Part shown: positions 37,870-50,250 of the stretch, in pieces
Numbering within the stretch: the first letter of the stretch is position 1
How the letters are laid out: every line of letters begins with the position of its first letter
From: an uncultured Candidatus Competibacteraceae bacterium
Lineage (GTDB): Bacteria; Bacteroidota; Bacteroidia; CAIKAF01
Direction: 5' to 3'
DNA: 64,000 bases
NCBI GenBank assembly: GCA_964599915.1
Contig: CAZRHR010000001.1
Span: 12,019-76,018 of the forward strand
Translations under genes and position numbers: made by a program
The notes under the pieces: generated by a model
Told to the model about the DNA's origin: nothing
Databases searched by the model: none
Seen by the model: only the letters and a program-made list of their open reading frames with translations

Positions 37870-39111
37870 TCACTCACGGCTATAGTTAAAATCAACTTGG
37901 GGTATTATATAACCACTTCGTTTCCCGTAATAAAAATCCATAAATGATTCATCACATAATTCAAAGTTAAGTATATCCTTTAAATATCCTAAAAGCTCAG
38001 TTGATTCCAAATGAAAGTTTAGTTGGACAGCATAAATTCCTGAATTCAATGTTCCGCCGGGTAATAAAAAAGTACAATTAATTCTACCTGGCGCTTCTGT
38101 GATCATTGGGGACGGGTTCTCAAAAATAACCTCCTCATTATTCCCTCTAACAATAAGATTTATATAAAAACCATTTAAAATAGAGTGCTCGAATTCAACA
38201 TTAAATCTTATTGCGTCTGAAGGATTTAACTGGTTGCCATCACTGGAAATGTGCACCCGATGCACCCATAAGCCTTCGCTTAGACGCCCTTCATCTCCCA
38301 AGATAACATTGATTTTTCTTGGTTCAGTGTCATCCATGTAAGCACGGATTGCACGGCTTGTTTCATCAATAGTTTTGATATTGCCATTTTTTAAAAACAT
38401 TACAGAACTGCATAGCGCTTTAATACTCAGTAAATTGTGACTAACAAAAAGCACCGTTCGACCCTCTGATGCACTTACATCCTTCATCTTTCCCAAACAC
38501 ATCTTCTGAAACTCACCATCCCCAACAGCCAATACCTCATCCACAATCAAAATCTCACTTTCCAAATGGGCCGCTACCGCAAAAGCCAATCGCACATACA
38601 TGCCGCTGCTATAGCGCTTTACCGGCGTGTCAATGTAGCGTTCCACTCCGGCAAAGTCTATGATTTCATCCAGCTTTCTGGTGATCTCATGTTTGCGCAT
38701 CCCCAAAATGGCACCATTTAAATAAATATTTTCCTTTCCGGTAAGCTCCGGGTGAAATCCTGTACCGACTTCAAGCAGGGAAGCGATGCGACCCTTTACT
38801 TTGATGTTTCCGGTCGTAGGGGCCGTTACCTTGGAGAGTATTTTTAATAAAGTGCTTTTCCCTGCGCCATTGCGCCCAATAATACCCAAAACTTCACCTT
38901 GTTCCACATCGAAACTTACATCTTGCAACGCCCAAACATAATCGGAAACTCCTTTTTGGGTGCGGTCATTTGTTTCACCAATTTTTTGAAATGGATCTTC
39001 TTTTCCCCTCATGGTATGCCACCACCGAAGGACATCGTCACGTAAGGTGCCGCTGCCAACGGTGCCAAGTCGGTATTGTTTAGAAATATTTTGGGCTTGG
39101 AGGATTTTCAT
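37870..39111 (-). CDS. wzt: Polysaccharide ABC exporter ATP-binding protein (Wzt/TagH-like) with a ~160-aa C-terminal extension domain
   Basis: Walker A GIIGRNGAGKSTLLKIL, signature YSSGMYVRLAFAVA, Walker B ILIVDEVLAVGD. The extra C-terminal domain is the Wzt-type substrate-recognition region. Confidence 0.9.
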   Translation of the reverse strand: MKILQAQNISKQYRLGTVGSGTLRDDVLRWWHTMRGKEDPFQKIGETNDRTQKGVSDYVWALQDVSFDVEQGEVLGIIGRNGAGKSTLLKILSKVTAPTTGNIKVKGRIASLLEVGTGFHPELTGKENIYLNGAILGMRKHEITRKLDEIIDFAGVERYIDTPVKRYSSGMYVRLAFAVAAHLESEILIVDEVLAVGDGEFQKMCLGKMKDVSASEGRTVLFVSHNLLSIKALCSSVMFLKNGNIKTIDETSRAIRAYMDDTEPRKINVILGDEGRLSEGLWVHRVHISSDGNQLNPSDAIRFNVEFEHSILNGFYINLIVRGNNEEVIFENPSPMITEAPGRINCTFLLPGGTLNSGIYAVQLNFHLESTELLGYLKDILNFELCDESFMDFYYGKRSGYIIPQVDFNYSRE

Positions 39112-39237
39112 GAATAGGATTAAAGATAAGTGTGATTTAAAATATGCGTTTGGCTTAATTTATGTTCAGCGTAGTAAGGAACAGAATTTTTCAGGCACAT
39201 AGTTTATTAAAACAATAAAGATACTTACTATCAATAC

Positions 39238-40083
39238 TTAGACCGTATCCATAAAGGTCTTTTCTGTGCGATTAAAAATCAAAATGCCCACCATCAAAGC
39301 AATCGAAGCGAATACTGTACTATATAACAATCCCATGAGGGGCACCTCGCCTGTACCGCCGGTAAATCCAAGCCTGAATGTTTCAATGACTGGCGCGAGG
39401 GGATTCAAATATAGGAAGGCCTTATACCTTTCAGGGATTTCAGACATTGGATAAATAACCGGGGTAATGTACATAAGCAGAGAAACCCCAAAGCTGATAA
39501 AATAGTTTAGGTCACGGTATTTGGTGGTAAGGGAAGACAAGATAATCCCCAGACCCAATCCGATGCAAGCCATCAAAAGAACCAACAAGGGAAAAAGCAA
39601 TGCGTAAATGTTCATTGAGGCCATACCTTTGTTGGCATAATACACCCAAAAAACCATGAACATGGCCATTTGAAGGAAAAACTTAAATAAACTAGAAATT
39701 ACCACAGAAATCGGGGATACCAACCTGGGAAAATATACCTTTCCGAAAATAGCGGCATTCGACACAAAAGTATTGGCTGTACCGGTAAAGCAGCTTTGGA
39801 AATAACTCCACAGGGTGGTACCTGCAAGGTAAAATAAAGGTCCAGGGATGCCATCCGTGGGAATTTGGGCAATGTGGGAAAATACAAAGGTAAAGGAGAA
39901 CACGGTGAATAAAGGACCAAGAAACAGCCATAAAGGACCGAGGATGGTCTGCTTGTATTGAGCCACAAAATCCCTCCTTACAAACAAGGCAATCAAATCT
40001 CTGTATCGCCAAACTTCTTTTAAATTCACATCGAATAAAGAACGTTTGGGGGAAATTATTTCTGTCCAACTTGTTTGGTTCAT
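39238..40083 (-). CDS. wzm: ABC-2 type polysaccharide exporter permease (Wzm-like)
   Basis: 281 aa, six TM segments, ABC-2 family layout. Sits immediately upstream of wzt. Confidence 0.85.
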   Translation of the reverse strand: MNQTSWTEIISPKRSLFDVNLKEVWRYRDLIALFVRRDFVAQYKQTILGPLWLFLGPLFTVFSFTFVFSHIAQIPTDGIPGPLFYLAGTTLWSYFQSCFTGTANTFVSNAAIFGKVYFPRLVSPISVVISSLFKFFLQMAMFMVFWVYYANKGMASMNIYALLFPLLVLLMACIGLGLGIILSSLTTKYRDLNYFISFGVSLLMYITPVIYPMSEIPERYKAFLYLNPLAPVIETFRLGFTGGTGEVPLMGLLYSTVFASIALMVGILIFNRTEKTFMDTV

Positions 40084-40368
40084 TTTTAAAGGGTCGTATG
40101 GAGTGGTTTTATGAAGATTAAAGTGGCATTGGCTTTGCTTGCTAAGTTTCGTTAAAAATAGAAATTAGGGTATCTTAAAATGATTTAAAATAGAGAAAAA
40201 CTAAACCTGCATATTTAAGCTATGGGGAAGAGGTTTAGCAGATTTCCTACATCACTTATTGATGTTGAAGCTTCTATGGTAAGGCTACAATGAAACCTGC
40301 GTGTCATGGCTTCGCCCTCTCAGTCCCATTCATGAGCCAAGCAAAACAAAGCATCGGGCGCGTTGTTG

Positions 40369-40890
40369 CTACGCTTTCCAAACCAGCAAAGACCCGGCAG
40401 CCAGGAGCTGCGTGAAGTCTTCTTCCGGCTTTATGACGAGAAAACGGATTTTACGGCCGATGGCCGCTTCCGCCTTTTCAACCAAATGCAACAAATAGGC
40501 CTTGTCCACATGCCCAACTAAGGCCAAGTCGATGATTCCTGAGTCTTTCCCCATGGCATAATCACCGGTTAAGTAGGCAGCTTCCAAGTGACCTAATTTT
40601 TGAACTACATCCTCCACAATTTTATCTAAACCCATGTATTTGGCGACCAAACCGGAAATTTCCTTGAACAAAGGATGACTTGTCTGGGCTCGATATTGCA
40701 CCGTGTTCCCCTGAACCTGCGATGCTAAAATCCCTGCGGAGGTCATCCTGTTTAATTCCAGTCGAATGCCATTGGTACTCTCCCCGAATTCTTCAGCGAG
40801 TTCCCGCAGGTATGCCGTAGTGACTGGATTAAGGAAAAACTTAACCAGGAGACGAATTCTCGTTTTGGATGTAATTAACGCCTCAATCAT
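40369..40890 (-). CDS. Winged-helix DNA-binding domain fused to a minimal-nucleotidyltransferase-like domain; putative regulator at the head of the locus
   Basis: N-terminal RIRLLVKFFLNPVTTAYLRELAEEFGESTNGIRLELNRMTSAGIL is ArsR/MarR-like wHTH. The C-terminal TGDYAMGKDSGIIDLALV resembles the GSxxxGxxxxxSDIDL pol-beta nucleotidyltransferase motif. Confidence 0.45.
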   Translation of the reverse strand: MIEALITSKTRIRLLVKFFLNPVTTAYLRELAEEFGESTNGIRLELNRMTSAGILASQVQGNTVQYRAQTSHPLFKEISGLVAKYMGLDKIVEDVVQKLGHLEAAYLTGDYAMGKDSGIIDLALVGHVDKAYLLHLVEKAEAAIGRKIRFLVIKPEEDFTQLLAAGSLLVWKA

Positions 40891-41227
40891 TGAGCAACAA
40901 AATTACTCATTTTTTCATGTATCCAATTAAAACCATCCTTTTTTCTTTAGAACCATGGTTAAATTTTACGGGGTAGGATAAAAATGGATTGGGTCATGCG
41001 CTGTGAAAGCGTGGCACATGTGCTCATTTTACGATGGCAGGTCTTGGACTCGATTTTAATATCAGATGGCTTGAAGTATCAGGTGTCAAGGGTTTGGATT
41101 ATAAAAGTTTCTTATTTCATCTGGCTTTTGAAACGTCGCATGGCTGCACACCTTTTGAAATTAATTCTTCTTTGCTCCCTTTGCCGCTGAAAAAAGTAGG
41201 TGAGGTCGGGATTTTTTTCTCATTTTT

Positions 41228-44200
41228 GTGTGCATAACCTGTATGTCTATGTTCGGTAAAAAACTGGCGGCCGTCTTTTTTATTTTAAGCGTCCATTGCA
41301 TGATGGGATATGGGCAAGTCATTTGGCTTTACTTACCTCACGATGGCGCCATTACGGGAGATCGGGACATGAGTTTTGAATGGCGTAGAAAATCGCCCAC
41401 CGCGACCTACACCTTAGCACTCTCCACGGACAGTCTTTTTTCCAATCCTTTGTTACTTTCCACCAATGTGCCCAAGGCTAACATAGGAAACTTACTCTAT
41501 GGACAAACCTATTGGTGGCGGGTCATCGGCTCCGGCGGGGACACTTCGGTGATCCGAAAATTTGAGGTCATGGATATAAAGGCTGCTGGCCCACTTTCCC
41601 TTTGGCTAAGGGCGGATAGTGCGGTAACGTTGAATGGCAGTGATTTGGTGAGCGGATGGACCGATTTGAGCGATTCCATGCGCTCAGCGTCACAACTTAG
41701 TCCCTTCATCATGCCCAGTTGGGTGAGTACCTCTTTTAACAACCTGCCTGCGGTTCGTTTTGGTAAGAATGGAGGAAGTGGACAACAAACCACCTTGACG
41801 ATACCACCCTTAGCTTTAAACACGCCCATTTGTGTATTTTCCGTCCACCGAGTTTTAAGCAATAACAATCTCGTTCAGTATCTAATGGCAAATACCTTAG
41901 CTGGTATTTTTTTAGGAGGGACAGTTAGTGGCGTAACAAATTCCGGCATTTATAATGATCCTAGTGTATTCGCTGCAACAGGCACAATGTTTCAAAATCT
42001 GAACCTTACCACTTGGCGAAAAAACCAAATACGAAGAAATGGAAGCAATTTATCCACCACCGGGAGCATCGGAAATTTATCTGTGAATACGCTTGGGGGA
42101 AGACCAGAAATAGCCACCCTCTTCTTCCACGGACTTCTTCCAGAACTTTTGGTGTATAAATCTGCCTTACCTGATTCTACGCGCGATAAAGTCGAGCGAT
42201 ATTTGGTATCGAAATATGCACGTCCGGTTCGGCTTCCTGCCGATACACTGGTCTGCGGTCCGTCCCTAAGCCTTACGCTTCCCGGAGGCACAGAGGAATT
42301 TTCGTCCATACTTTGGAGTACTGGGGCCACAGGCACCAGCATTAACATCACCCAAAACGGGACCTATTGGGTTAGAGGAGCCAGCCGGCTGGGTGGATAC
42401 ATCACCACCGACACCATTAGGGTAACAGGCATTCATAGCATTCCCGTTACGTCCATTACAACCCCTCAGCGTTTTATTTGCTATGGAGATACATTAACTA
42501 ACGTTTATTTAAACGCAAATCCTAATCAACCTTGGTATTGGAGCAATGGATTCACTGGAAATACCTTGGTGATAACCCAACCCGGAACTTATCAAGTTTT
42601 TCAACCGCATCCATCTGGATGTATTCTTTCCTCACCTCCATTGCAAGTCATCAATAGGGTAAATGCAGATTTCGTTTTGCCTAATGGCTGTGAAGGCGAT
42701 ACGTTAATGTTCACTGATTTGTCTCAAGACGCCTTGAATGACCCCATCGTATTTTTCAACTGGCAATTTGGCCCGAATGCCATTCCAGATACCACCCATA
42801 GAGATACGGTATTTACGGTTTTTAATCAACCCGGCAGTTATCCAATACAACTCATCGCTTATAATTCTCTAGGTTGCCCGGATACCACTGAAAGAATGTT
42901 GGTGGTTTCACCAAAACCGGCCCCCCAGTTTTCCATTAATAATGAATGCGTAGGCAACCCTGTCACCTTTACAAATCTTACCGCCATTCCTACGGGTACA
43001 TCGCTATCTCAAGTCCGCTGGAATTTAGGCAATGGGGTTGTTTCTAATCAAATAGGCCCTACCACTTCCTACGCACAATCCGGCACATATCCTGTGCAAC
43101 TTCGGGTTAAATTTTCTAATGGCTGCATCGACAGCCTTGAACAAGCCGTCCAAATAAACAAGGATGTTTCGCCTATCTTTTCTCTTCCCAAGGATACTTT
43201 TTGTTTTGGTGAACTCATCTATACTGCGGATCAATCTCTCTACAGCAACACGAACCCAGGAACCATTCAATGGCGCATTAATGGTGCCATTGAGGCTTCC
43301 GGAATAAATTTTTCCAAACCAGCCGCTCCTGTTGGCAACAACGTTTTACGCATGACCTTGCAGTCTTCAAATGGTTGTGTCGCTGAAACTTCTCGCCATT
43401 TTTTTGTACAAGCGCTACCTACCGCACAGATAGCATCCTCCACGCAACTAGCCTTTCCCCCAGCTAACCTTCAGTTTATCAACAACTCATTGGGAGAGTT
43501 TGACCAAGTAAGATGGGTCGACCCGTTTGGCATTACCGTGCTCAATCAAGATACGTGCTTCACCACCCTTTCAGATACAGGTCTCTATCAAGTGTTTCTG
43601 CATGTACAAGACCGATTTGGTTGTATGGATTCGACCTCGCTCCCCATTCGCATCGTTTTACCGCAGATGAATACAAAACTGTTCAATCTGCAATGTACCG
43701 TAAACAACGGATACGTTAGCGCAAATTTTTCCATTAGAAATGAAAGCTTTCAACTTCCCATCCAGGAAATGGAGCTTGCCCTGTTTGTGGACCAAAGTTC
43801 AAGGTTTACAGAGGAATGGAAAGGGCAATTAGCCCCAGGTAGCTTACTTGAATATGTGTACAATGCTCAAGTGGAAACCATTGGAAATCCAAACGTTTGC
43901 TGTGTTCAGATTCAACGCATCCGTTCTGAATATAACCCTGGGCAGTTTTTAGAACAAGCAGGAGGAACCTATTGTGAAGCCATGACCAATGAATTTATGT
44001 TGGTTCGGCCATTTCCCAATCCTACTTCCGGTCCTGTAAGTGTTTTTGTAGTTCTACCTGATTCAGGAGAAGCCACCTGGAGCCTGTCTGCATCATCCGG
44101 AACCACCGCAATGGCAGGAAATTGGTCGGGCCAGGCAGGAGTGCACGAACTTAATTTGGACTTGTCCGCCCTCTCTGTAGGCCTATATTTTTTAGAAGTA

Positions 44201-44248
44201 AGGTTTAAAAACCAAACCGTACATACAAAGATTTTGGTTCATCGCTAA
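41228..44248 (+). CDS. Large secreted PKD-repeat protein with a T9SS type-A C-terminal sorting domain
   Basis: Signal peptide, multiple PKD-like repeats (GSYPIQLIAYNSLGCPDT, GTYPVQLRVKFSNGCIDS), and a C-terminus of GLYFLEVRFKNQTVHTKILVHR. The true start is probably MSMFGKK or MFGKK. Confidence 0.7.
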   Translation: MCITCMSMFGKKLAAVFFILSVHCMMGYGQVIWLYLPHDGAITGDRDMSFEWRRKSPTATYTLALSTDSLFSNPLLLSTNVPKANIGNLLYGQTYWWRVIGSGGDTSVIRKFEVMDIKAAGPLSLWLRADSAVTLNGSDLVSGWTDLSDSMRSASQLSPFIMPSWVSTSFNNLPAVRFGKNGGSGQQTTLTIPPLALNTPICVFSVHRVLSNNNLVQYLMANTLAGIFLGGTVSGVTNSGIYNDPSVFAATGTMFQNLNLTTWRKNQIRRNGSNLSTTGSIGNLSVNTLGGRPEIATLFFHGLLPELLVYKSALPDSTRDKVERYLVSKYARPVRLPADTLVCGPSLSLTLPGGTEEFSSILWSTGATGTSINITQNGTYWVRGASRLGGYITTDTIRVTGIHSIPVTSITTPQRFICYGDTLTNVYLNANPNQPWYWSNGFTGNTLVITQPGTYQVFQPHPSGCILSSPPLQVINRVNADFVLPNGCEGDTLMFTDLSQDALNDPIVFFNWQFGPNAIPDTTHRDTVFTVFNQPGSYPIQLIAYNSLGCPDTTERMLVVSPKPAPQFSINNECVGNPVTFTNLTAIPTGTSLSQVRWNLGNGVVSNQIGPTTSYAQSGTYPVQLRVKFSNGCIDSLEQAVQINKDVSPIFSLPKDTFCFGELIYTADQSLYSNTNPGTIQWRINGAIEASGINFSKPAAPVGNNVLRMTLQSSNGCVAETSRHFFVQALPTAQIASSTQLAFPPANLQFINNSLGEFDQVRWVDPFGITVLNQDTCFTTLSDTGLYQVFLHVQDRFGCMDSTSLPIRIVLPQMNTKLFNLQCTVNNGYVSANFSIRNESFQLPIQEMELALFVDQSSRFTEEWKGQLAPGSLLEYVYNAQVETIGNPNVCCVQIQRIRSEYNPGQFLEQAGGTYCEAMTNEFMLVRPFPNPTSGPVSVFVVLPDSGEATWSLSASSGTTAMAGNWSGQAGVHELNLDLSALSVGLYFLEVRFKNQTVHTKILVHR

Positions 44249-44266
44249 ATTATATAGTTTTGACCC

Positions 44267-44776
44267 ATGATTCAATCTTCGTCCACCGAGGCATGGTATG
44301 TCTTTTATTGCAAGTCTAGAGCCGAAAAAAAACTGTTTGAAACCTTAAAACTCTTCGGACTTTCGCCATTTCTTCCTTTAATTACGGTAAAAAGACAATG
44401 GTCAGACCGGATAAAAAAAGTATCGGTCCCCCTGTTTCCTAATTACATTTTTGTTTTTTGCACGGCCTCACAAGTCCCAAAAATCTTGAGTTTTAATCAC
44501 GTGGTTGCCCCAGTGAGACAAAATGGACAATGGGCTACATTGAAAAGCCATGAAAAAGTTTATATCGAACAAGTCCTCGCCACTGGCTACCATTTTGAAC
44601 TTGTTGAAACCAAAATAGCAGAAGGAGATTTAGTGGAAGTTTCAATTGGGGCATTGAAAGGCATTCAAGGACGGGTACTTCACCATCAAGGGCAAATCCG
44701 TGTGGTTATTGAGGTAGAAGTTTTAAATAAATCCATGGTGGTCACCGTTCCTTCAAGCCAACTACGCAAACTTTAA
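44267..44776 (+). CDS. UpxY/UpdY-family NusG-like transcription antiterminator
   Basis: WYVFYCKSRAEKKLFETLKLFGLSPFLPLITVKRQW...LFPNYIFV is the NGN domain. The C-terminal GDLVEVSIGALKGIQGRV is a KOW motif. It is the first gene of a plus-strand glycan operon. Confidence 0.75.
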   Translation: MIQSSSTEAWYVFYCKSRAEKKLFETLKLFGLSPFLPLITVKRQWSDRIKKVSVPLFPNYIFVFCTASQVPKILSFNHVVAPVRQNGQWATLKSHEKVYIEQVLATGYHFELVETKIAEGDLVEVSIGALKGIQGRVLHHQGQIRVVIEVEVLNKSMVVTVPSSQLRKL

Positions 44777-44825
44777 GGGATTTATACCTTATCTTCACCC
44801 CCGACAATTAAAACCTTTGTTTTTC

Positions 44826-46664
44826 ATGTGCGGAATTGCTGGCACGACCCATCCCACCCAAGCAGCCTCTTTGATTCGGTCCATGACGCAAGCCATGGCC
44901 CATCGTGGACCCGATGCAGAAGGCCACTTTGTCCATCCCGAACGTCCACTCGCTTTAGGTCATCGTCGGCTTTCGATCATAGACTTGTCCGAAGCCGGTT
45001 CCCAACCTTTTTATAGTGCCTGTGGCCAGTATGTGATGGTATTCAATGGAGAAGTTTTCAATTTTCAAGAAATTGCAACGGAACTTTTGAATGAAAAAAG
45101 CCTCACGTTCAGATCCCGCACAGATACCGAAGTTATTTTAGAAGCCTTTGTGCACTGGGGCCCCAACTTTGTCCATAAGCTCAATGGCATGTTCGCCATC
45201 GCTATTTACGACGTTCGCGAAGACAAACTCTTTCTCTGGAGAGATCGACTTGGCATCAAGCCCATTTATTTTTACCACCACGGCCGGCATTTTGCTTTCG
45301 CCTCTGAACTCGGCTCCCTTAAAGCCGCAGTTCCCTTCTCTACCATCAATCAAGCGGCTGTTTCCTTATATTTTCACCTTGGGTACATTCCGGCACCCCA
45401 TACCATTTACTCAGAAGCTAAAAAACTTCCCGCCGGACATTGGCTCACTTACGAAAAAGGGCAAATTCAATCGGGTGCATGGTGGCCCATCGAAGAAGTC
45501 AGCAACCATGCGTACCAAGGCAGCCTGGAAGAAGCCACCGAGGAACTGGACCAACTTCTTACAGACGCCGTAGCCAAACGACTTGTAGCAGACGTTCCCT
45601 TCGGAACGTTTCTCAGTGGTGGCATTGATTCCAGTTTGGTCACCGCTTTGGCGGCCAAACAATACGGCCCGGGCCTAAGAACCTTTTCCATTGCCATGGA
45701 CCAGCAAACCCATGACGAATCATCCTATGCATTGGCCGTAAGCAAGGCGCTCGGAACCAACCATACTTCTTTCAAAGTAACGGCCAATGATGCCATGGAT
45801 TTGGTCACCGCCCTTCCAGACATTTACCAAGAACCTTATGCCGACAGCTCGGCCATGCCCACCTTGCTTGTGTCGCAACTCGCAAGGCAACATGTGACCA
45901 TGGTACTCACCGGAGACGGAGGCGATGAATTGTTCCTTGGTTATGGCGCCTACCGGTGGGCCGAACGATGGAACCAGATGCCTGGATTTTTACGCCAAAC
46001 AGCCGCCTTCGCCCTCTCCATCGGAAAAGAGCGCCATAAAAGAGCCGCCGATTTGTTGCGAGGCCCCAAAAATGTTTCTACCTATTCGCATATTTTTTCC
46101 CAAGAACAATACCTGTTTTCCGACCGCGAATTACCTGCCTTGCTAAACTTTCCGCCACAACTGAACTCCATTTCACCCCTTTTCCCCGAAAGACCACTTT
46201 CCCCCGCCGAACAACAAGCTTTTTTCGATTTGCAATATTACCTGCCCGACGATTTATTGGTCAAAGTGGACCGGGCCACCATGCGACATAGTTTGGAAGC
46301 CCGCGTACCTATCCTCGATTACCGGGTCGCCACCTTTGCCATGAATCTTCCTCCTCATTTCAAAATGCAGGGAGATATTCAAAAGCATATTTTAAAAAAT
46401 GTCCTGTACAGATATTTACCCGCCTCCTTGTTCGACCGACCCAAATGGGGTTTTTCCGTTCCACTCGCCACCTGGCTACAAAAAGAACTTGCACCCCTTG
46501 TGGACCAATGGGTTGCGCAACCCGAGGCCTACGCCCATGGTTGCCTTCAACATGCCACCGCACTGCAATGGCTAAACCGCTTTAAAGCCGGCGAAACCCG
46601 CCTTTACAATAGGATTTGGCTCATCCTTCAGTTTAACCTTTGGTATGCCCGAAACCATGCGTAG
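44826..46664 (+). CDS. asnB: Asparagine synthase (glutamine-hydrolysing), AsnB/WbpS-like
   Basis: MCGIAG N-terminus (the true start, not the upstream MFFM), HRGPDAEGH, and SGGIDSS PP-loop. Confidence 0.9.
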   Translation: MCGIAGTTHPTQAASLIRSMTQAMAHRGPDAEGHFVHPERPLALGHRRLSIIDLSEAGSQPFYSACGQYVMVFNGEVFNFQEIATELLNEKSLTFRSRTDTEVILEAFVHWGPNFVHKLNGMFAIAIYDVREDKLFLWRDRLGIKPIYFYHHGRHFAFASELGSLKAAVPFSTINQAAVSLYFHLGYIPAPHTIYSEAKKLPAGHWLTYEKGQIQSGAWWPIEEVSNHAYQGSLEEATEELDQLLTDAVAKRLVADVPFGTFLSGGIDSSLVTALAAKQYGPGLRTFSIAMDQQTHDESSYALAVSKALGTNHTSFKVTANDAMDLVTALPDIYQEPYADSSAMPTLLVSQLARQHVTMVLTGDGGDELFLGYGAYRWAERWNQMPGFLRQTAAFALSIGKERHKRAADLLRGPKNVSTYSHIFSQEQYLFSDRELPALLNFPPQLNSISPLFPERPLSPAEQQAFFDLQYYLPDDLLVKVDRATMRHSLEARVPILDYRVATFAMNLPPHFKMQGDIQKHILKNVLYRYLPASLFDRPKWGFSVPLATWLQKELAPLVDQWVAQPEAYAHGCLQHATALQWLNRFKAGETRLYNRIWLILQFNLWYARNHA

Positions 46665-47889
46665 CCTATATCTTTCTTACGATGGCATGACCGATCCACT
46701 GGGACAATCCCAAGTGCTGCCCTATCTGCAAGGTCTAGCAAAACAAGGCTGGGAAATCACCCTCATCAGTTTTGAAAAACAAGAACGCTTTTCTCAAGAA
46801 AAAGCCACCATAGAAGCCCTTACCCAAGCTGCAGGAATCCGCTGGATCCCGCTTCCCTACACCAAAAAGCCCCCCGTTTTATCCACCCTTTGGGACCTTT
46901 ACAAACTGTTTCAAACCGTAAAAAAGGAACATCGAAACCAGCCTTTTCAATTGGTTCACTGCCGCAGCTACATCACCGCATTTGCCGGATTACACCTGAA
47001 AAAAAAACATGGGGTGCCTTTTCTGTTCGATATGCGAGGATTTTATGCAGATGAACGGGTAGAAGGAGGCATTTGGAACCTGAAAAATCCACTCTTCAGC
47101 CGCATTTATCAGTATTTTAAATCGGCGGAGCAAAAGTTCCTCACCCAGGCCGATGCCATTGTTTGCCTCACCCACAAAGGAAAGGCAGTGATGAAAGATT
47201 TCCCCGGCGTTACGTCCTCTGTTCACGAGAAAATAGCAGTCATCCCATGCTGTACAGACATGGACCATTTTTCCTCACGTCAGGTTCAGCCGGCCATGGT
47301 AGAAGCATGGAAAACCAAGCTGGCCTTGCCAACCGGCACTGAGCTCATCGCTTATTTAGGTTCCCTTGGGACGTGGTATCTGGTGGAAGACATGGCGCGC
47401 TTTATGGCTGTTGCACACGCTGCGCGCCCCCAATTGGTCTGGTTAATCATCACCCGCGACCAGCCCGATGCACTTTGGCGCGCCGCAGAAAAACACGGCT
47501 TACCCAAAGAGGCCATCAGGATTTTTCCGGCCAAGCGAGATGAATTACCAAGCCTGTTGTCATTGGTGAAAGCCTCTTTGTTTTTTATCCAGCCTTCCTT
47601 TTCCAAGCAAGCCTCCAGCCCCACCAAGCAAGGAGAACTTATGGCCATGGGGATTCCCGTCATTTGCAACGCAGGCGTAGGCGACTCAGATTTCCTCGTT
47701 CAAAAATACCAGTCCGGACTGGTGGTTGAAAAAATGGAAGAGGCAGATTTTCAAAAAGTATTGGAGCACTGGGAAGAACTTTTGCATCCGGATACGGAAG
47801 CCATCCGCCGTGGCGCTTACGACTATTTTTCTTTGGAAAAAGGCGTAGCCACTTACGCCGGTCTATATACCTCCCTCACCCAAAAATAG
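46645..47889 (+). CDS. GT4-like glycosyltransferase
   Basis: GT-B protein whose start overlaps the end of asnB. C-terminal GELMAMGIPVICNAGVGDSDFLV is a degenerate EX7E region. Confidence 0.7.
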   Translation: MPETMRSLYLSYDGMTDPLGQSQVLPYLQGLAKQGWEITLISFEKQERFSQEKATIEALTQAAGIRWIPLPYTKKPPVLSTLWDLYKLFQTVKKEHRNQPFQLVHCRSYITAFAGLHLKKKHGVPFLFDMRGFYADERVEGGIWNLKNPLFSRIYQYFKSAEQKFLTQADAIVCLTHKGKAVMKDFPGVTSSVHEKIAVIPCCTDMDHFSSRQVQPAMVEAWKTKLALPTGTELIAYLGSLGTWYLVEDMARFMAVAHAARPQLVWLIITRDQPDALWRAAEKHGLPKEAIRIFPAKRDELPSLLSLVKASLFFIQPSFSKQASSPTKQGELMAMGIPVICNAGVGDSDFLVQKYQSGLVVEKMEEADFQKVLEHWEELLHPDTEAIRRGAYDYFSLEKGVATYAGLYTSLTQK

Positions 47890-48207
47890 TCCGTGTAGGC
47901 CGGAAGTTTGATTTTAGGGCGCCTGCCGCCGTAGGCCTTTTTCCTCCCCAAACATTTCCCAATCTCTAAAGACCCAATAGCCCCAAGGGTACAAGAACGG
48001 CGGCACCGCGTGCTCCGCTCAAAGTCCTCACCGCTGGCGCCCCGCCCTTTCAGGCGGCAGGTCGCCAGCCGTTCCGGGCTTCCGCTTCGCCCGCTGGCGC
48101 GGGACAGGCGTTCCAGCAGCTCCCCGAATCCCATAAGCCATGTTAGCCTTACCTGCCAAAACACCGGCTAACCAAGGATTTTCCTATCTTTCGAGAAAAT
48201 ACTTCCT

Positions 48208-48636
48208 ATGCATCGTACCTATCTCTTTTCCTCCCTCCTTTTCGTTTTCCTTCTTTCCACCCACCTGCATGCACAGGGCACCCTTCAGTTCAACCGTGTT
48301 GTGCTGGTTTCCAACTCCGCAACTGTACCAGCCGGAAAGGTGTGGAAAGTAGAATCCGTTTTATCTACCAGCACCCTTGCTGCCAACAACAACAGTGAGT
48401 CTAGTGTAAACACAGTAAGCTTAAACATTGTAGTTAACGGTACCTCAGTCATAGTAGAGCGCTCCAGTGTAGGCATTGGTTCGCAAACCGGAAGCGCAGG
48501 TGTTATGCGTGCTTACTGGGGATATGCTTCTGCCGGCGTAACCAAACTGCCTTTTTGGCTTCCGGCCGGAAGTACATTAGCAGCATCCACCAACGCACTG
48601 GCGGTGTCCGTGATTGAGTTTAATGTGCTGCCGTAG
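48208..48636 (+). CDS. Small secreted protein, unknown family (paralog A)
   Basis: Signal peptide ending ...HLHAQG. Conserved blocks TLQFNRV, TVPAGKVWKVES, KLPFWLPAGS and SVIEFNVLP are shared with 48877..49269. Confidence 0.55.
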   Translation: MHRTYLFSSLLFVFLLSTHLHAQGTLQFNRVVLVSNSATVPAGKVWKVESVLSTSTLAANNNSESSVNTVSLNIVVNGTSVIVERSSVGIGSQTGSAGVMRAYWGYASAGVTKLPFWLPAGSTLAASTNALAVSVIEFNVLP

Positions 48637-48876
48637 AGAACCCTGCGGATAAAAAAATTATCTGCTGGTGGATTAAAACAAAATATCATATGTTAATAAA
48701 ACAACTCAATGATACGTCTATCAAGGAATATCATTATACCGTCACTGTTATTTTCAATCATGCAGCATTTAATTTGAGATGCACCATGTGGTTGAATTAA
48801 AAAAATACACCCCCATCCTCCAGCAGCAAACGTAGGATTTTGCCTACCTTTATTTCCACATCGATTACAAACCACC

Positions 48877-49269
48877 ATGACTCGCCTTACGCTAATTTCC
48901 CTTTCCGTTTTTTTCCTCCTTGCATGGTCCAACCTCATGTCTGCGCAAGGGACCTTGCAGTTTAACCGTGTACTTATGGTGGGAAATGTGGAACAAACGG
49001 TACCCGCGGGCAAAGTTTGGAAAGTGGAATCCATTATCTACAGCAGCGCCCCTACTCCCATCATGGGAGGCAACCAAAACGACCAACTTTTGATTGATGG
49101 CAGTGCACTCACGGTGCGGGCTACACGTTCTTCCAATGGTGGTTATAATGCCGTAACGTATGGCGTTTGGGAACAAAAACTTCCCATCTGGTTACCTGCG
49201 GCCAGCCGATTACAGACAGGCGCGAATGTGCAGAGCATAAGTGTAATAGAATTCAATATTCTACCTTAA
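48877..49269 (+). CDS. Small secreted protein, unknown family (paralog B)
   Basis: Signal peptide ending ...LMSAQG. Shares TLQFNRV, TVPAGKVWKVES, KLPIWLPAAS and SVIEFNILP with paralog A. Confidence 0.55.
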   Translation: MTRLTLISLSVFFLLAWSNLMSAQGTLQFNRVLMVGNVEQTVPAGKVWKVESIIYSSAPTPIMGGNQNDQLLIDGSALTVRATRSSNGGYNAVTYGVWEQKLPIWLPAASRLQTGANVQSISVIEFNILP

Positions 49270-49641: not shown

Positions 49642-50250
49642 ATGTCAAAAAACCTACTTTTTGCGCTTACTGCGTTGATTTGGCTTGGTTGCCAACCCAT
49701 CATGCTGAAAATGTATGGGATTAAAGATCCCGATGTAGAAAATGAAAAAAGCATCATTAGAACGGCGCTTCGTTACCGATTGGATACCACTCATTTGGTT
49801 ACGGTAAGCGGTAAAGATTTCCTTGATGTTCTCAACGGACAATCCATACCCGATGGAGCCATCTACGACCGAAATGGACAGTTTATAGAATACAAGGATA
49901 CGGATTCCTCTTGTAACGCTGGTCTGTTCGGTTTTATTCCGGCCTTAAATCTCACTGACCAATACAGGCAACCCGAGCGGCCAAGTCTGCAAATGGAGCT
50001 GGCAAAATATCGAGATTTGAAAGGCAATCCCATTCAACTGACAGAAGAAGCAGATTTTTACCTTCTCATTTATTGGTCAGTCTGGACAGGAAGACTGAAC
50101 AAGGACCATGTAAAGGTTTGGGAAGATTTGGCAAAGCGCAACACGAAATGTAAAATTAAAGTGATAAAAGTGAACTTAGACCTACAATCTTATTGGGAGG
50201 AAAAGGAGCGGGAAAGCATTATTGAGGCCATTCGGAAAAAGGGGAAATAG
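49642..50250 (+). CDS. Putative lipoprotein, unknown function
   Basis: N-terminal LTALIWLGC is a lipobox-like signal. No recognisable catalytic motif. Confidence 0.4.
   Translation: MSKNLLFALTALIWLGCQPIMLKMYGIKDPDVENEKSIIRTALRYRLDTTHLVTVSGKDFLDVLNGQSIPDGAIYDRNGQFIEYKDTDSSCNAGLFGFIPALNLTDQYRQPERPSLQMELAKYRDLKGNPIQLTEEADFYLLIYWSVWTGRLNKDHVKVWEDLAKRNTKCKIKVIKVNLDLQSYWEEKERESIIEAIRKKGK

What the first reader, a model, noticed from the sequence alone, without database searches (positions are those of the whole stretch)
48208..49269. Tandem pair of paralogous small secreted proteins of an unrecognised family
Two ~130-140-aa proteins each have a signal peptide cleaved after AQG. They share tight conserved blocks: TLQFNRV, TVPAGKVWKVES, KLP(F/I)WLPA(G/A)S and a C-terminal SVIEFN(V/I)LP. 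The middle region is variable. I cannot place the family. The arrangement (duplicated, secreted, conserved ends, variable centre) is typical of ligand-binding or fimbrial-tip-like or lectin-like proteins. They lie between the glycan operons and comM, just downstream of the GC-rich element.
Basis: seen in the sequence. Interest (0 to 1): 0.55.

Follow-up and report, generated by a model that had tools for sequence, protein, structure and literature searches.

The report
Unnamed secreted jelly-roll family linked to fibres
The two small genes are real, exported members of a large, unnamed Bacteroidota protein family that elsewhere forms arrays of up to 22 copies directly behind a collagen-like surface-fibre gene, which suggests (unproven) that they are interchangeable fibre-associated binding modules.

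Summary

The family is large: 1,782 representatives at 50% identity, and every named source is an uncultured Bacteroidota genome.

The tandem pair is not the family's hallmark. In the closest relative, A and B lie 5.8 kb apart, and their orthologues sit on different contigs elsewhere. The typical arrangement is a translationally coupled array of 3-22 paralogues directly downstream of a collagen-like trimeric fibre gene. That fibre has no tip domain and ends in an invariant peptide, NTL[IV]YTxDGF. All 33 such fibre genes are followed by a family member. In two fusion proteins the domain sits at the C-terminal end of larger multidomain proteins.

My best reading, at about 40% confidence, is that these are exported, fibre-associated variable binding modules. 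Here they occur as two solitary, separately transcribed copies. The function is untested.

The parts
48208..48636 (+). ORF A, 142 aa: family member (A-type). Predicted signal peptide at residues 1-22 (48208-48273), mature jelly-roll domain from Gln23 (48274-48633), stop codon at 48634-48636.
   Evidence: ORF and sequence. (family HMM E 2.3e-47). (AF2 pLDDT 85: helix 2-22, then 7 beta-strands). (dN/dS 0.16 against L001). (exact protein present in independent assemblies).
48877..49269 (+). ORF B, 130 aa: family member (B-type). Predicted signal peptide at residues 1-23 (48877-48945), mature domain from Gln24 (48946-49266), stop codon at 49267-49269.
   Evidence: (family HMM E 3.8e-42). (AF2 pLDDT 90.4: helix 2-23, then 8 beta-strands). 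(dN/dS 0.04). (96% identical orthologue in L001, 79% in L024).
48176..48192 (+). Promoter-like motif upstream of A, GGATTTTCCTATCTTTC, containing TATCTTTC. This resembles the Bacteroidota -7 box TAnnTTTG. It ends 15 nt before the ATG.
   Evidence: conserved in L001 and shared with the B upstream region. (similar TAyCTTT boxes upstream of many solitary family members). Consensus from PMC6847099 and PMC9723704. Function is inferred, not tested.
48835..48852 (+). Promoter-like motif upstream of B, GGATTTTGCCTACCTTTA, containing TACCTTTA. It ends 24 nt before the ATG.
   Evidence: exact match; 0.13 matches expected by chance. Conserved in L001. Function is inferred.
48637..48876 (.). A-B intergenic spacer. 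Positions 48639-48834 have no counterpart in L001, where 5.8 kb lies at the same place (two-component system, T9SS-tailed protein, 165-aa ORF).
   Evidence: blastn synteny blocks. (L001 gene map). (the L001 intervening genes are absent from the window).

Best explanation
ORF A and ORF B are two solitary, separately transcribed members of a large uncharacterised Bacteroidota family. Its members are Sec-exported, single-domain proteins of about 105-115 mature residues with an 8-stranded jelly-roll fold.

The conserved parts are the first and last beta-strands (QGxLQFNxV and SVIEFNVxP-COOH) and two PAG-containing segments (TVPAGKVWKVE and LPxWLPAGxTL). Two other segments are hypervariable and tolerate insertions of up to about 90-97 residues.

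In most related genomes the family forms translationally coupled arrays of 3-22 paralogues. These arrays start immediately after a gene for a trimeric collagen-like fibre that has no globular tip and ends in the invariant peptide NTL[IV]YTxDGF-COOH.

Proposed mechanism (inferred). After export, the modules associate through their conserved face with the fibre's conserved C-terminal tail and display their variable loops. One stalk would then carry a repertoire of binding specificities. This would be a 'split' version of fibre adhesins whose variable tips are normally fused to the stalk. A and B would be extra, independently regulated modules of that repertoire.

Shown: the genes are real; their N-termini look like Sec signal peptides (judged by eye and by the predicted helix; no predictor was run); the predicted fold; the size of the family; the array architecture; the strict fibre-tail association; and the C-terminal fusions.

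Inferred: physical docking to the fibre, surface exposure, and ligand binding.

Confidence by step: real secreted jelly-roll family, about 0.9; functionally tied to the fibres, about 0.55; tip or adhesin modules supplied in trans, about 0.35-0.4.
For: Real genes: dN/dS 0.16 and 0.04; 213 close homologues; 1,782 representatives at 50% identity.

Extracytoplasmic location: conserved hydrophobic N-terminus followed by Gln; mature domains mostly carry 0, 2 or 4 Cys.

Arrays: 528 members in 81 sequences, up to 22 per locus. 207 gene junctions are ATGA overlaps.

Fibre link: for runs of 3 or more members, a fibre gene lies immediately upstream in 49 of the 56 runs whose 5' end is inside the locus, against 2 of 35 singletons. 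All 33 fibre genes with the TL[IV]YTxDGF tail are followed by a family member, against 4 of the 22 other cluster-0 genes. Tail-type fibres have no C-terminal globular domain, and their stalk ranges from none to about 90 overlapping G-X-Y triplet matches. The fibre matches Pfam Collagen, the Lcl/Scl collagen adhesins and phage collagen-like tail-fibre PHROGs. Its N-domain gives a sub-threshold match to Bdellovibrio MAT_N.

Fusions: P0257 is LamG (Pfam E 2e-16) plus a weak, sub-cutoff Ig_3 match plus this domain at the extreme C-terminus. P0147 has a repeat and predicted coiled-coil region followed by two confident and two weak tandem copies at the C-terminus.

Variability pattern: within arrays the N-block is about 65% identical, the C-block about 43% and the centre about 12%.

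The MAGs that hold the closest A-type and B-type orthologues (CAZOEO, VGMT01, CAILUT) also carry fibre-headed arrays (L036, L040, L047).

Precedent for swappable beta-sandwich tips on trimeric bacterial surface fibres: PMC10769870.
Against: No fibre gene, collagen repeat or TL[IV]YTxDGF tail occurs anywhere in the 64-kb window. Solitary members, including A and B, sit in unrelated contexts with no conserved partner.

Neither the family nor the tail-type fibre has a lipobox or a T9SS C-terminal domain, so a route across the outer membrane is unexplained. They could be periplasmic.

No multimer prediction or binding data could be obtained.

Confidence: 0.4

Rival explanations
1. The proteins are self-assembling structural subunits. 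They would polymerise or oligomerise into a heteromeric pilus-like appendage or surface coat, in the way jelly-roll Ena spore pili or minor pilin sets do. The collagen-like protein would be a co-assembled component rather than the scaffold.
Confidence: 0.15
2. The proteins are freely secreted or periplasmic soluble binding proteins, such as lectin-like or nutrient- or surface-binding factors. They would be co-expressed with the fibre but not attached to it, and the solitary copies such as A and B would act alone.
For: 35 of the 93 runs are solitary genes with their own promoters and no fibre nearby. A and B lie next to a glycan biosynthesis and export locus. The variable loops and disulfide-type Cys counts suit an extracytoplasmic binder.
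Against: This does not explain the 33 of 33 association with the tail-type fibre, or why such fibres lack a tip. It also does not explain why the conserved surface is so strongly constrained across paralogues whose centres are only 12% identical. The neighbours of solitary members are not conserved, so the position next to the glycan locus is probably incidental.
Confidence: 0.2
3. The proteins are periplasmic assembly factors for the fibre, analogous to phage tail-fibre assembly proteins encoded just downstream of fibre genes. They would replace the intramolecular Peptidase_S74 chaperone that tail-type fibres lack.
For: The genes lie immediately downstream of the fibre gene. In loci with two fibre genes, the one carrying Peptidase_S74 is followed by another fibre gene, and the one without S74, which has the tail, is followed by the array.
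Against: One fibre would not need 10-22 highly diverged chaperones. Hypervariable, insertion-rich loops are not expected in a chaperone. There is no match to the tail-fibre assembly families in Pfam or PHROGs, and no family member was found on viral contigs. Solitary copies without a fibre are under strong purifying selection.
Confidence: 0.1
4. The domain is a sorting or anchoring module, a new kind of C-terminal secretion or attachment domain, and the standalone copies are cargo-less or competitor versions.
For: In P0257 and P0147 the domain lies at the extreme C-terminus of multidomain proteins. The last residues (..EFNVxP-COOH) are nearly invariant. T9SS cargo genes are common in the array loci.
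Confidence: 0.07
5. The two ORFs are spurious or decaying reading frames with chance similarity.
For: They have no annotation anywhere, and they lie in a variable region at the edge of a glycan locus.
Against: Pairwise E is 1e-28 and the family HMM gives E 1e-42 to 1e-47. dN/dS is 0.04-0.16. The AF2 models are confident. There are 1,782 family representatives.
Confidence: 0.01

Closest known systems
Bdellovibrio mosaic adhesive trimer (MAT) fibres (PMC10769870)
   Same: Both are trimeric cell-surface fibres with a conserved cell-proximal N-domain, in versions with and without a Peptidase_S74 chaperone, and with a large repertoire of independently folding, swappable beta-sandwich tips. The array-heading fibres here give a sub-threshold match to the MAT N-domain model (44.5 and 39.3 bits against a cutoff of 60). 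Some loci also hold an S74-type fibre.
   Different: MAT tips are fused to each fibre, about 21 full-length genes scattered in the genome. Here the stalk has no tip, and up to 22 small domains are separate genes, each with its own signal peptide, in one operon. The stalk is collagen-like, whereas MAT stalks are beta-helix or beta-prism. The organisms are Bacteroidota. The window itself contains no fibre gene.
Phage fibre-tip adhesins and tail-fibre assembly proteins supplied in trans (T2-type gp38, Mu Tfa; from background knowledge, not tested here)
   Same: A small protein encoded directly downstream of a fibre gene binds the fibre's C-terminal tip and can determine receptor specificity. It has conserved attachment parts and hypervariable receptor-contacting parts.
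   Different: There is no sequence or profile similarity and the family is absent from viral contigs. The proteins here are Sec-exported cellular proteins, and there are up to 22 paralogues per fibre, not one.
Collagen-like proteins with jelly-roll heads or partners: C1q/TNF-type heads, Bacillus BclA with its C1q-like C-terminal domain, and the ExsFA anchor
   Different: The similarity is weak and no better than to cupins or nucleoplasmin. In C1q and BclA the head is fused to the stalk. ExsFA binds the N-terminal end of BclA. There is no sequence relationship.
[not shown]
   Different: Sequence identity is 8-10%. Nucleoplasmins are eukaryotic nuclear histone chaperones that form pentamers. The resemblance is of fold only and has no functional or evolutionary meaning.
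Bacillus Ena endospore pili (DUF3992; 7a02)
   Different: Ena subunits polymerise through an N-terminal Cys-containing connector. The proteins here lack any such extension, and A and B have no Cys. There is no sequence similarity.

Membership tests
T9SS type A C-terminal sorting domain (Por_Secre_tail, PF18962 / TIGR04183) | A match to the C-terminal domain profile at the C-terminus of the protein | tested here: not met
   Neither ORF A nor ORF B matches in Pfam or NCBIfam at E up to 1. The same libraries detect the domain in neighbouring proteins.
T9SS type B C-terminal sorting domain (TIGR04131) | A match to the type B C-terminal domain profile | tested here: not met
   A and B do not match. 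The model does detect the about 950-aa array-flanking protein.
Cupin superfamily | Jelly-roll or double-stranded beta-helix fold | tested here: inconclusive
   [not shown]
Cupin superfamily | Conserved metal-binding His/Glu motifs (GX5HXHX3-4EX6G and GX5PXGX2HX3N; quoted from background knowledge) | tested here: not met
   The mature sequences of A and B contain no histidine at all. None of the invariant or nearly invariant family columns is His.
TNF / C1q-like trimeric heads | Significant structural match to TNF or gC1q domains | tested here: inconclusive
   [not shown]
TNF / C1q-like trimeric heads | Homotrimer formation around a three-fold axis | not testable with these tools
Phage tail-fibre assembly proteins and fibre-tip adhesins | A match to known assembly-protein or adhesin families, or occurrence in phage genomes | tested here: not met
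   There are no PHROGs or Pfam matches. No relative was found on IMG/VR viral contigs. The BFVD fold search gave nothing at E below 0.018.
Phage tail-fibre assembly proteins and fibre-tip adhesins | Encoded immediately downstream of a fibre gene | tested here: not met
   There is no fibre gene in the window. The feature is met for array members in relatives, where 33 of 33 tail-type fibres are followed by a family member.
Bdellovibrio MAT fibre superfamily | A long trimeric fibre protein with the conserved MAT N-terminal domain and a tip fused to it | tested here: not met
   A and B are single-domain proteins of 130-142 aa. The neighbouring fibres in relatives score 39-44 bits against the Bdello_MAT_N cutoff of 60, so even they are not established members.
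Chaperone-usher or type V (FimA/Mfa) pilins | A lipoprotein or pilin precursor with a donor-strand extension, and an adjacent usher, chaperone or anchor gene | tested here: not met
   There is no Cys lipobox. The fold is predicted complete, with no terminal extension. There is no fimbrial Pfam or NCBIfam match and no usher or chaperone gene in any locus.
The family described here (unnamed) | Signal peptide ending ..A|QG; the blocks LQFNxV, TVPAGKVWKVE, LPxWLPAGxTL and C-terminal SVIEFNVxP; length 120-150 aa | tested here: met
   The family HMM gives E 2.3e-47 for A and 3.8e-42 for B over its full length. All invariant columns are present in both.

The most novel reading that the evidence does not exclude
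A split, combinatorial adhesin system. One tip-less collagen-like stalk ends in a universal docking peptide (NTL[IV]YTxDGF-COOH). Up to 22 separately encoded, co-translated jelly-roll modules, plus dispersed solitary ones such as A and B, cap it interchangeably, possibly as mixed trimers. This would give uncultured freshwater Bacteroidota a large repertoire of surface-binding specificities from a single fibre gene.
Probability: 0.3. Interest if true: 0.8.

Novelty: new variant of a known kind. Interest (0 to 1): 0.6.

Why it matters
If the reading is right, it describes a new way for bacteria to build variable surface adhesins: a conserved stalk with a docking peptide, and a large set of exchangeable tips encoded in trans. 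The known design fuses each tip to its own fibre, as in Bdellovibrio MAT fibres and phage fibres.

Even without the mechanism, the result defines a sizeable protein family (at least 1,782 clusters at 50% identity) that was missing from every profile library I could search. It has a confident predicted fold, clear signature motifs and a strict genomic association. Together these make the function directly testable.

All homologues with a named source come from uncultured Bacteroidota, mostly freshwater Flavobacteriales and Crocinitomicaceae MAGs, whose surface biology (attachment to particles or algae, predation, phage evasion) is poorly known.

For this window specifically, the two genes are ordinary solitary members of the family. 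The interest lies in the family they reveal.

Tried and rejected
- **Profile and sequence libraries.** Pfam, NCBIfam, PHROGs, PADLOC and PDB sequence profiles gave nothing significant for A or B. The KRE1, flavodoxin and antibody-light-chain hits are noise.
- **Viral contigs.** No relatives were found, so a phage origin is not supported.
- **P0147 as a direct fibre fusion.** BLASTP between its N-terminus and an array fibre gave E 0.5. I therefore describe it only as a multidomain protein with C-terminal copies of the domain.
- **PF26696 'PTL_trimer'.** This label is precomputed on the fibres, but the family is absent from the local Pfam copy and from the literature search.
- **Array-terminal 'END' proteins.** hhalign supports only a 22-column motif match, VPxGKxWK, so I do not count them as members.
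- **Conserved partners of solitary members.** The downstream 202-aa lipoprotein-like gene is conserved only in L001/L002. The about 1,340-aa neighbours in L009/L010 and in L048/L050 are unrelated to each other.
- **GC-rich element upstream.** There is no Rfam match, the fold is no better than shuffled sequence (z -0.94), and it is single-copy. No link to these genes was found.
- **Repeats.** There is no DNA repeat or recombination signature around the pair.
- **Literature.** Searches for a description of such arrays found nothing relevant.

Full report
**1. The observation**

The window has two + strand ORFs at exactly the reported coordinates: A at 48208-48636 (142 aa) and B at 48877-49269 (130 aa). 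They are 41% identical (BLASTP E 1e-28).

Each begins with a short charged N-terminus and a hydrophobic stretch that ends ..HA-QGT (A) or ..SA-QGT (B). AlphaFold models this stretch as a lone helix ahead of the beta domain.

Against the orthologues in the closest relative (L001), dN/dS is 0.16 for A and 0.04 for B. The identical A protein and the same A-B arrangement occur in an independent metagenome assembly. These are real, constrained genes.

One detail needs correcting. The conserved Gln, together with family members that read AQT-L or GQT-L without the Gly, points to cleavage before Gln and not after AQG. This matches the Bacteroidota 'Q-rule' (PMC5837995, PMC10653852). It is an inference, because no signal-peptide predictor was available.

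**2. No known family, generic fold**

Pfam, NCBIfam, PHROGs, PADLOC and a profile search of all PDB sequences gave nothing significant. None of the listed homologues carries a precomputed Pfam domain, and every source name is 'hypothetical', apart from one evidently spurious label.

AlphaFold2 with family alignments gave confident models: A at pLDDT 85 and B at pLDDT 90.4. Both are small beta-sandwiches, with 8 strands in B.

Cupin membership is excluded: the mature proteins have no histidine.

**3. A large family**

A word-indexed search found 213 homologues. An exhaustive profile search of 1.84 billion representatives found 1,782 at E up to 0.001 and 803 at E up to 1e-10. Nearly all are standalone proteins of 120-150 aa.

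A scan of species-representative genomes gave 73 loci. All are from uncultured Bacteroidota MAGs, mostly freshwater Flavobacteriales and Crocinitomicaceae. No relative was found on 2.9 million viral contigs.

A 509-member alignment shows high conservation at AQGxLQFNxV, TVPAGKVWKxE, an NG turn, PxWLPAGxTL and the C-terminal SVIEFNxxP. The centre is close to random. Two hot-spots accept insertions of up to 97 and 89 residues. Mature domains mostly carry 0, 2 or 4 cysteines, as expected for extracytoplasmic proteins.

**4. The pair is not the family's typical arrangement**

Window positions 42212-48638 and 48835 onward are collinear with L001. However, L001 has 5.8 kb between A and B where the window has about 196 unrelated bases. 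That 5.8 kb carries a LuxR-type response regulator, a Y_Y_Y sensor kinase, a T9SS-tailed protein and a 165-aa ORF.

A-type orthologues (L008-L010, 72-82% identical) and B-type orthologues (L024, L043, L048, L050, 73-79% identical) lie on different contigs in different contexts.

A and B each have a TAyCTTT box 15-25 nt upstream of the ATG, and it is conserved in L001. Many solitary members have similar boxes. The box resembles the Bacteroidota -7 promoter element TAnnTTTG (PMC6847099, PMC9723704). The two genes therefore look like independent transcription units that happen to be neighbours in this lineage.

**5. What the family usually looks like**

Across 81 sequences, the family HMM finds 528 members. 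They form runs of up to 19 consecutive genes on one strand, and up to 22 per locus. Runs are often paired as two divergent arrays. 207 gene junctions are 4-nt ATGA overlaps.

Clustering of the neighbouring genes gives a recurrent operon:
- a collagen-like secreted fibre gene;
- N family members;
- a small terminal protein that shares only the VPxGKxWK motif;
- a small T9SS type A cargo protein;
- a protein of about 950 aa with a T9SS type B sorting domain, whose cluster relatives carry PKD domains.

The fibre matches Pfam Collagen, the Lcl and Scl collagen adhesins and phage collagen-like tail-fibre families. Its N-domain gives a sub-threshold match to the Bdellovibrio MAT fibre N-domain. Some loci also have a second collagen fibre with a Peptidase_S74 chaperone domain.

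For runs of three or more members, a fibre gene lies immediately upstream in 49 of the 56 runs whose 5' end is inside the locus. For singletons the figure is 2 of 35.

The fibres that head arrays have no globular C-terminal domain. After a stalk that ranges from none to about 90 overlapping G-X-Y triplet matches, they end in a Gly/Ser-rich linker and the invariant peptide NTL[IV]YTxDGF-COOH. All 33 genes with that tail are followed directly by a family member. Only 4 of the 22 other fibre-cluster genes are.

**6. Fusions**

Two of the 150 listed profile hits are multidomain proteins.
- P0257 (451 aa) has a confirmed LamG domain and a weak, sub-cutoff Ig_3 match, then this domain at its extreme C-terminus.
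- P0147 (731 aa) has a repeat and predicted coiled-coil region followed by two confident and two weak tandem copies. It ends ..SVIEFTP.

I could not show that P0147's N-terminus is homologous to the array fibres.

**7. Interpretation**

The conserved terminal strands and the two PAG segments contrast with the hypervariable, insertion-tolerant loops. Together with the strict coupling to tip-less fibres that carry an invariant C-terminal peptide and the position of the domain at the C-terminal end in the fusions, this points to exported modules that associate with the fibre and provide variable binding surfaces. In effect the design is a split form of the swappable-tip fibres described for Bdellovibrio MAT proteins (PMC10769870).

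The MAGs that hold the closest A-type and B-type orthologues also carry fibre-headed arrays (L036, L040, L047). The window's organism may well have one outside the 64 kb examined. A and B would then be dispersed, separately regulated members of the repertoire.

This mechanism is inferred. I put about 0.4 on it overall.

Weaknesses:
- The window has no fibre gene.
- Solitary members have no conserved partner.
- There is no known route across the outer membrane for either component.
- No multimer prediction was possible.

The rivals are self-assembling subunits, free soluble binders, periplasmic assembly factors and a novel sorting domain. They are listed with their evidence. 'Spurious ORFs' is refuted.

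**8. Novelty and score**

None of the libraries I could search contains the family, and the literature searches found no description of such arrays. Because the fold is generic and the function is untested, I class it as a new variant of a known kind (variable-tip surface fibre systems) and not as categorically new.

The window's two genes are unremarkable members. The interest (0.6) comes from the family and the array-fibre association they lead to.

Noticed in passing
window 47990-48130: A GC-rich stretch lies between the GT4 stop codon and ORF A. It is single-copy in the window, has no Rfam match, and folds no better than shuffled sequence (z -0.94). It lies inside the 85.7%-identical synteny block with L001. 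An Arg/Gly-rich minus-strand ORF (47853-48164) overlaps it and looks spurious. No link to ORFs A or B was found.
   Followed up: partly
L001 10432-16251 (equivalent to window 48639-48834): The closest relative carries 5.8 kb between the A and B orthologues: a LuxR-type response regulator, a Y_Y_Y/HisKA_3 sensor kinase, a 318-aa Por_Secre_tail protein and a 165-aa ORF. All are absent from the window. Whether this is an insertion in L001 or a deletion in the window is unresolved.
   Followed up: partly
window 37870-47889: This is a glycan export and biosynthesis locus. It holds a Wzt/Wzm-type ABC-2 exporter, a 1006-aa PKD plus Por_Secre_tail (T9SS) protein at 41228-44248, a NusG/UpxY-like antiterminator at 44267-44776, AsnB and a GT4 glycosyltransferase.
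   Followed up: partly
window 49642-50250: A 202-aa ORF with a lipoprotein-like N-terminus (..WLGC..). It matches no family and is conserved only in L001/L002. It is not a general partner of the family.
   Followed up: partly
L004, L006, L027, L035, L040-L042, L047 (upstream of the largest arrays): A cytoplasmic protein of about 470 aa with no Pfam or NCBIfam match is encoded divergently from the fibre gene in 11 loci. It may be a dedicated regulator.
   Followed up: no
L014, L015, L029, L031-L033, L049, L051, L060, L065: A 232-aa protein that looks like an outer-membrane beta-barrel (weak, sub-threshold Autotransporter beta-domain match) follows the terminal gene of some arrays. It might be an anchor or an exporter.
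   Followed up: no
L008, L024, L036, L039 (MAG CAZOEO01) and L038, L044 (MAG CAZJFM01): These MAGs are titled 'Candidatus Competibacteraceae' (Gammaproteobacteria), yet they carry loci typical of Bacteroidota, including the closest named orthologues of A and B. The bins are probably mislabelled or contaminated.
   Followed up: no
L035, L040, L041, L047 (mid-array): A second, 453-454-aa fibre-cluster gene with a different C-terminus (..GIVILAYQ) sits in the middle of the longest arrays and splits them into two blocks.
   Followed up: no
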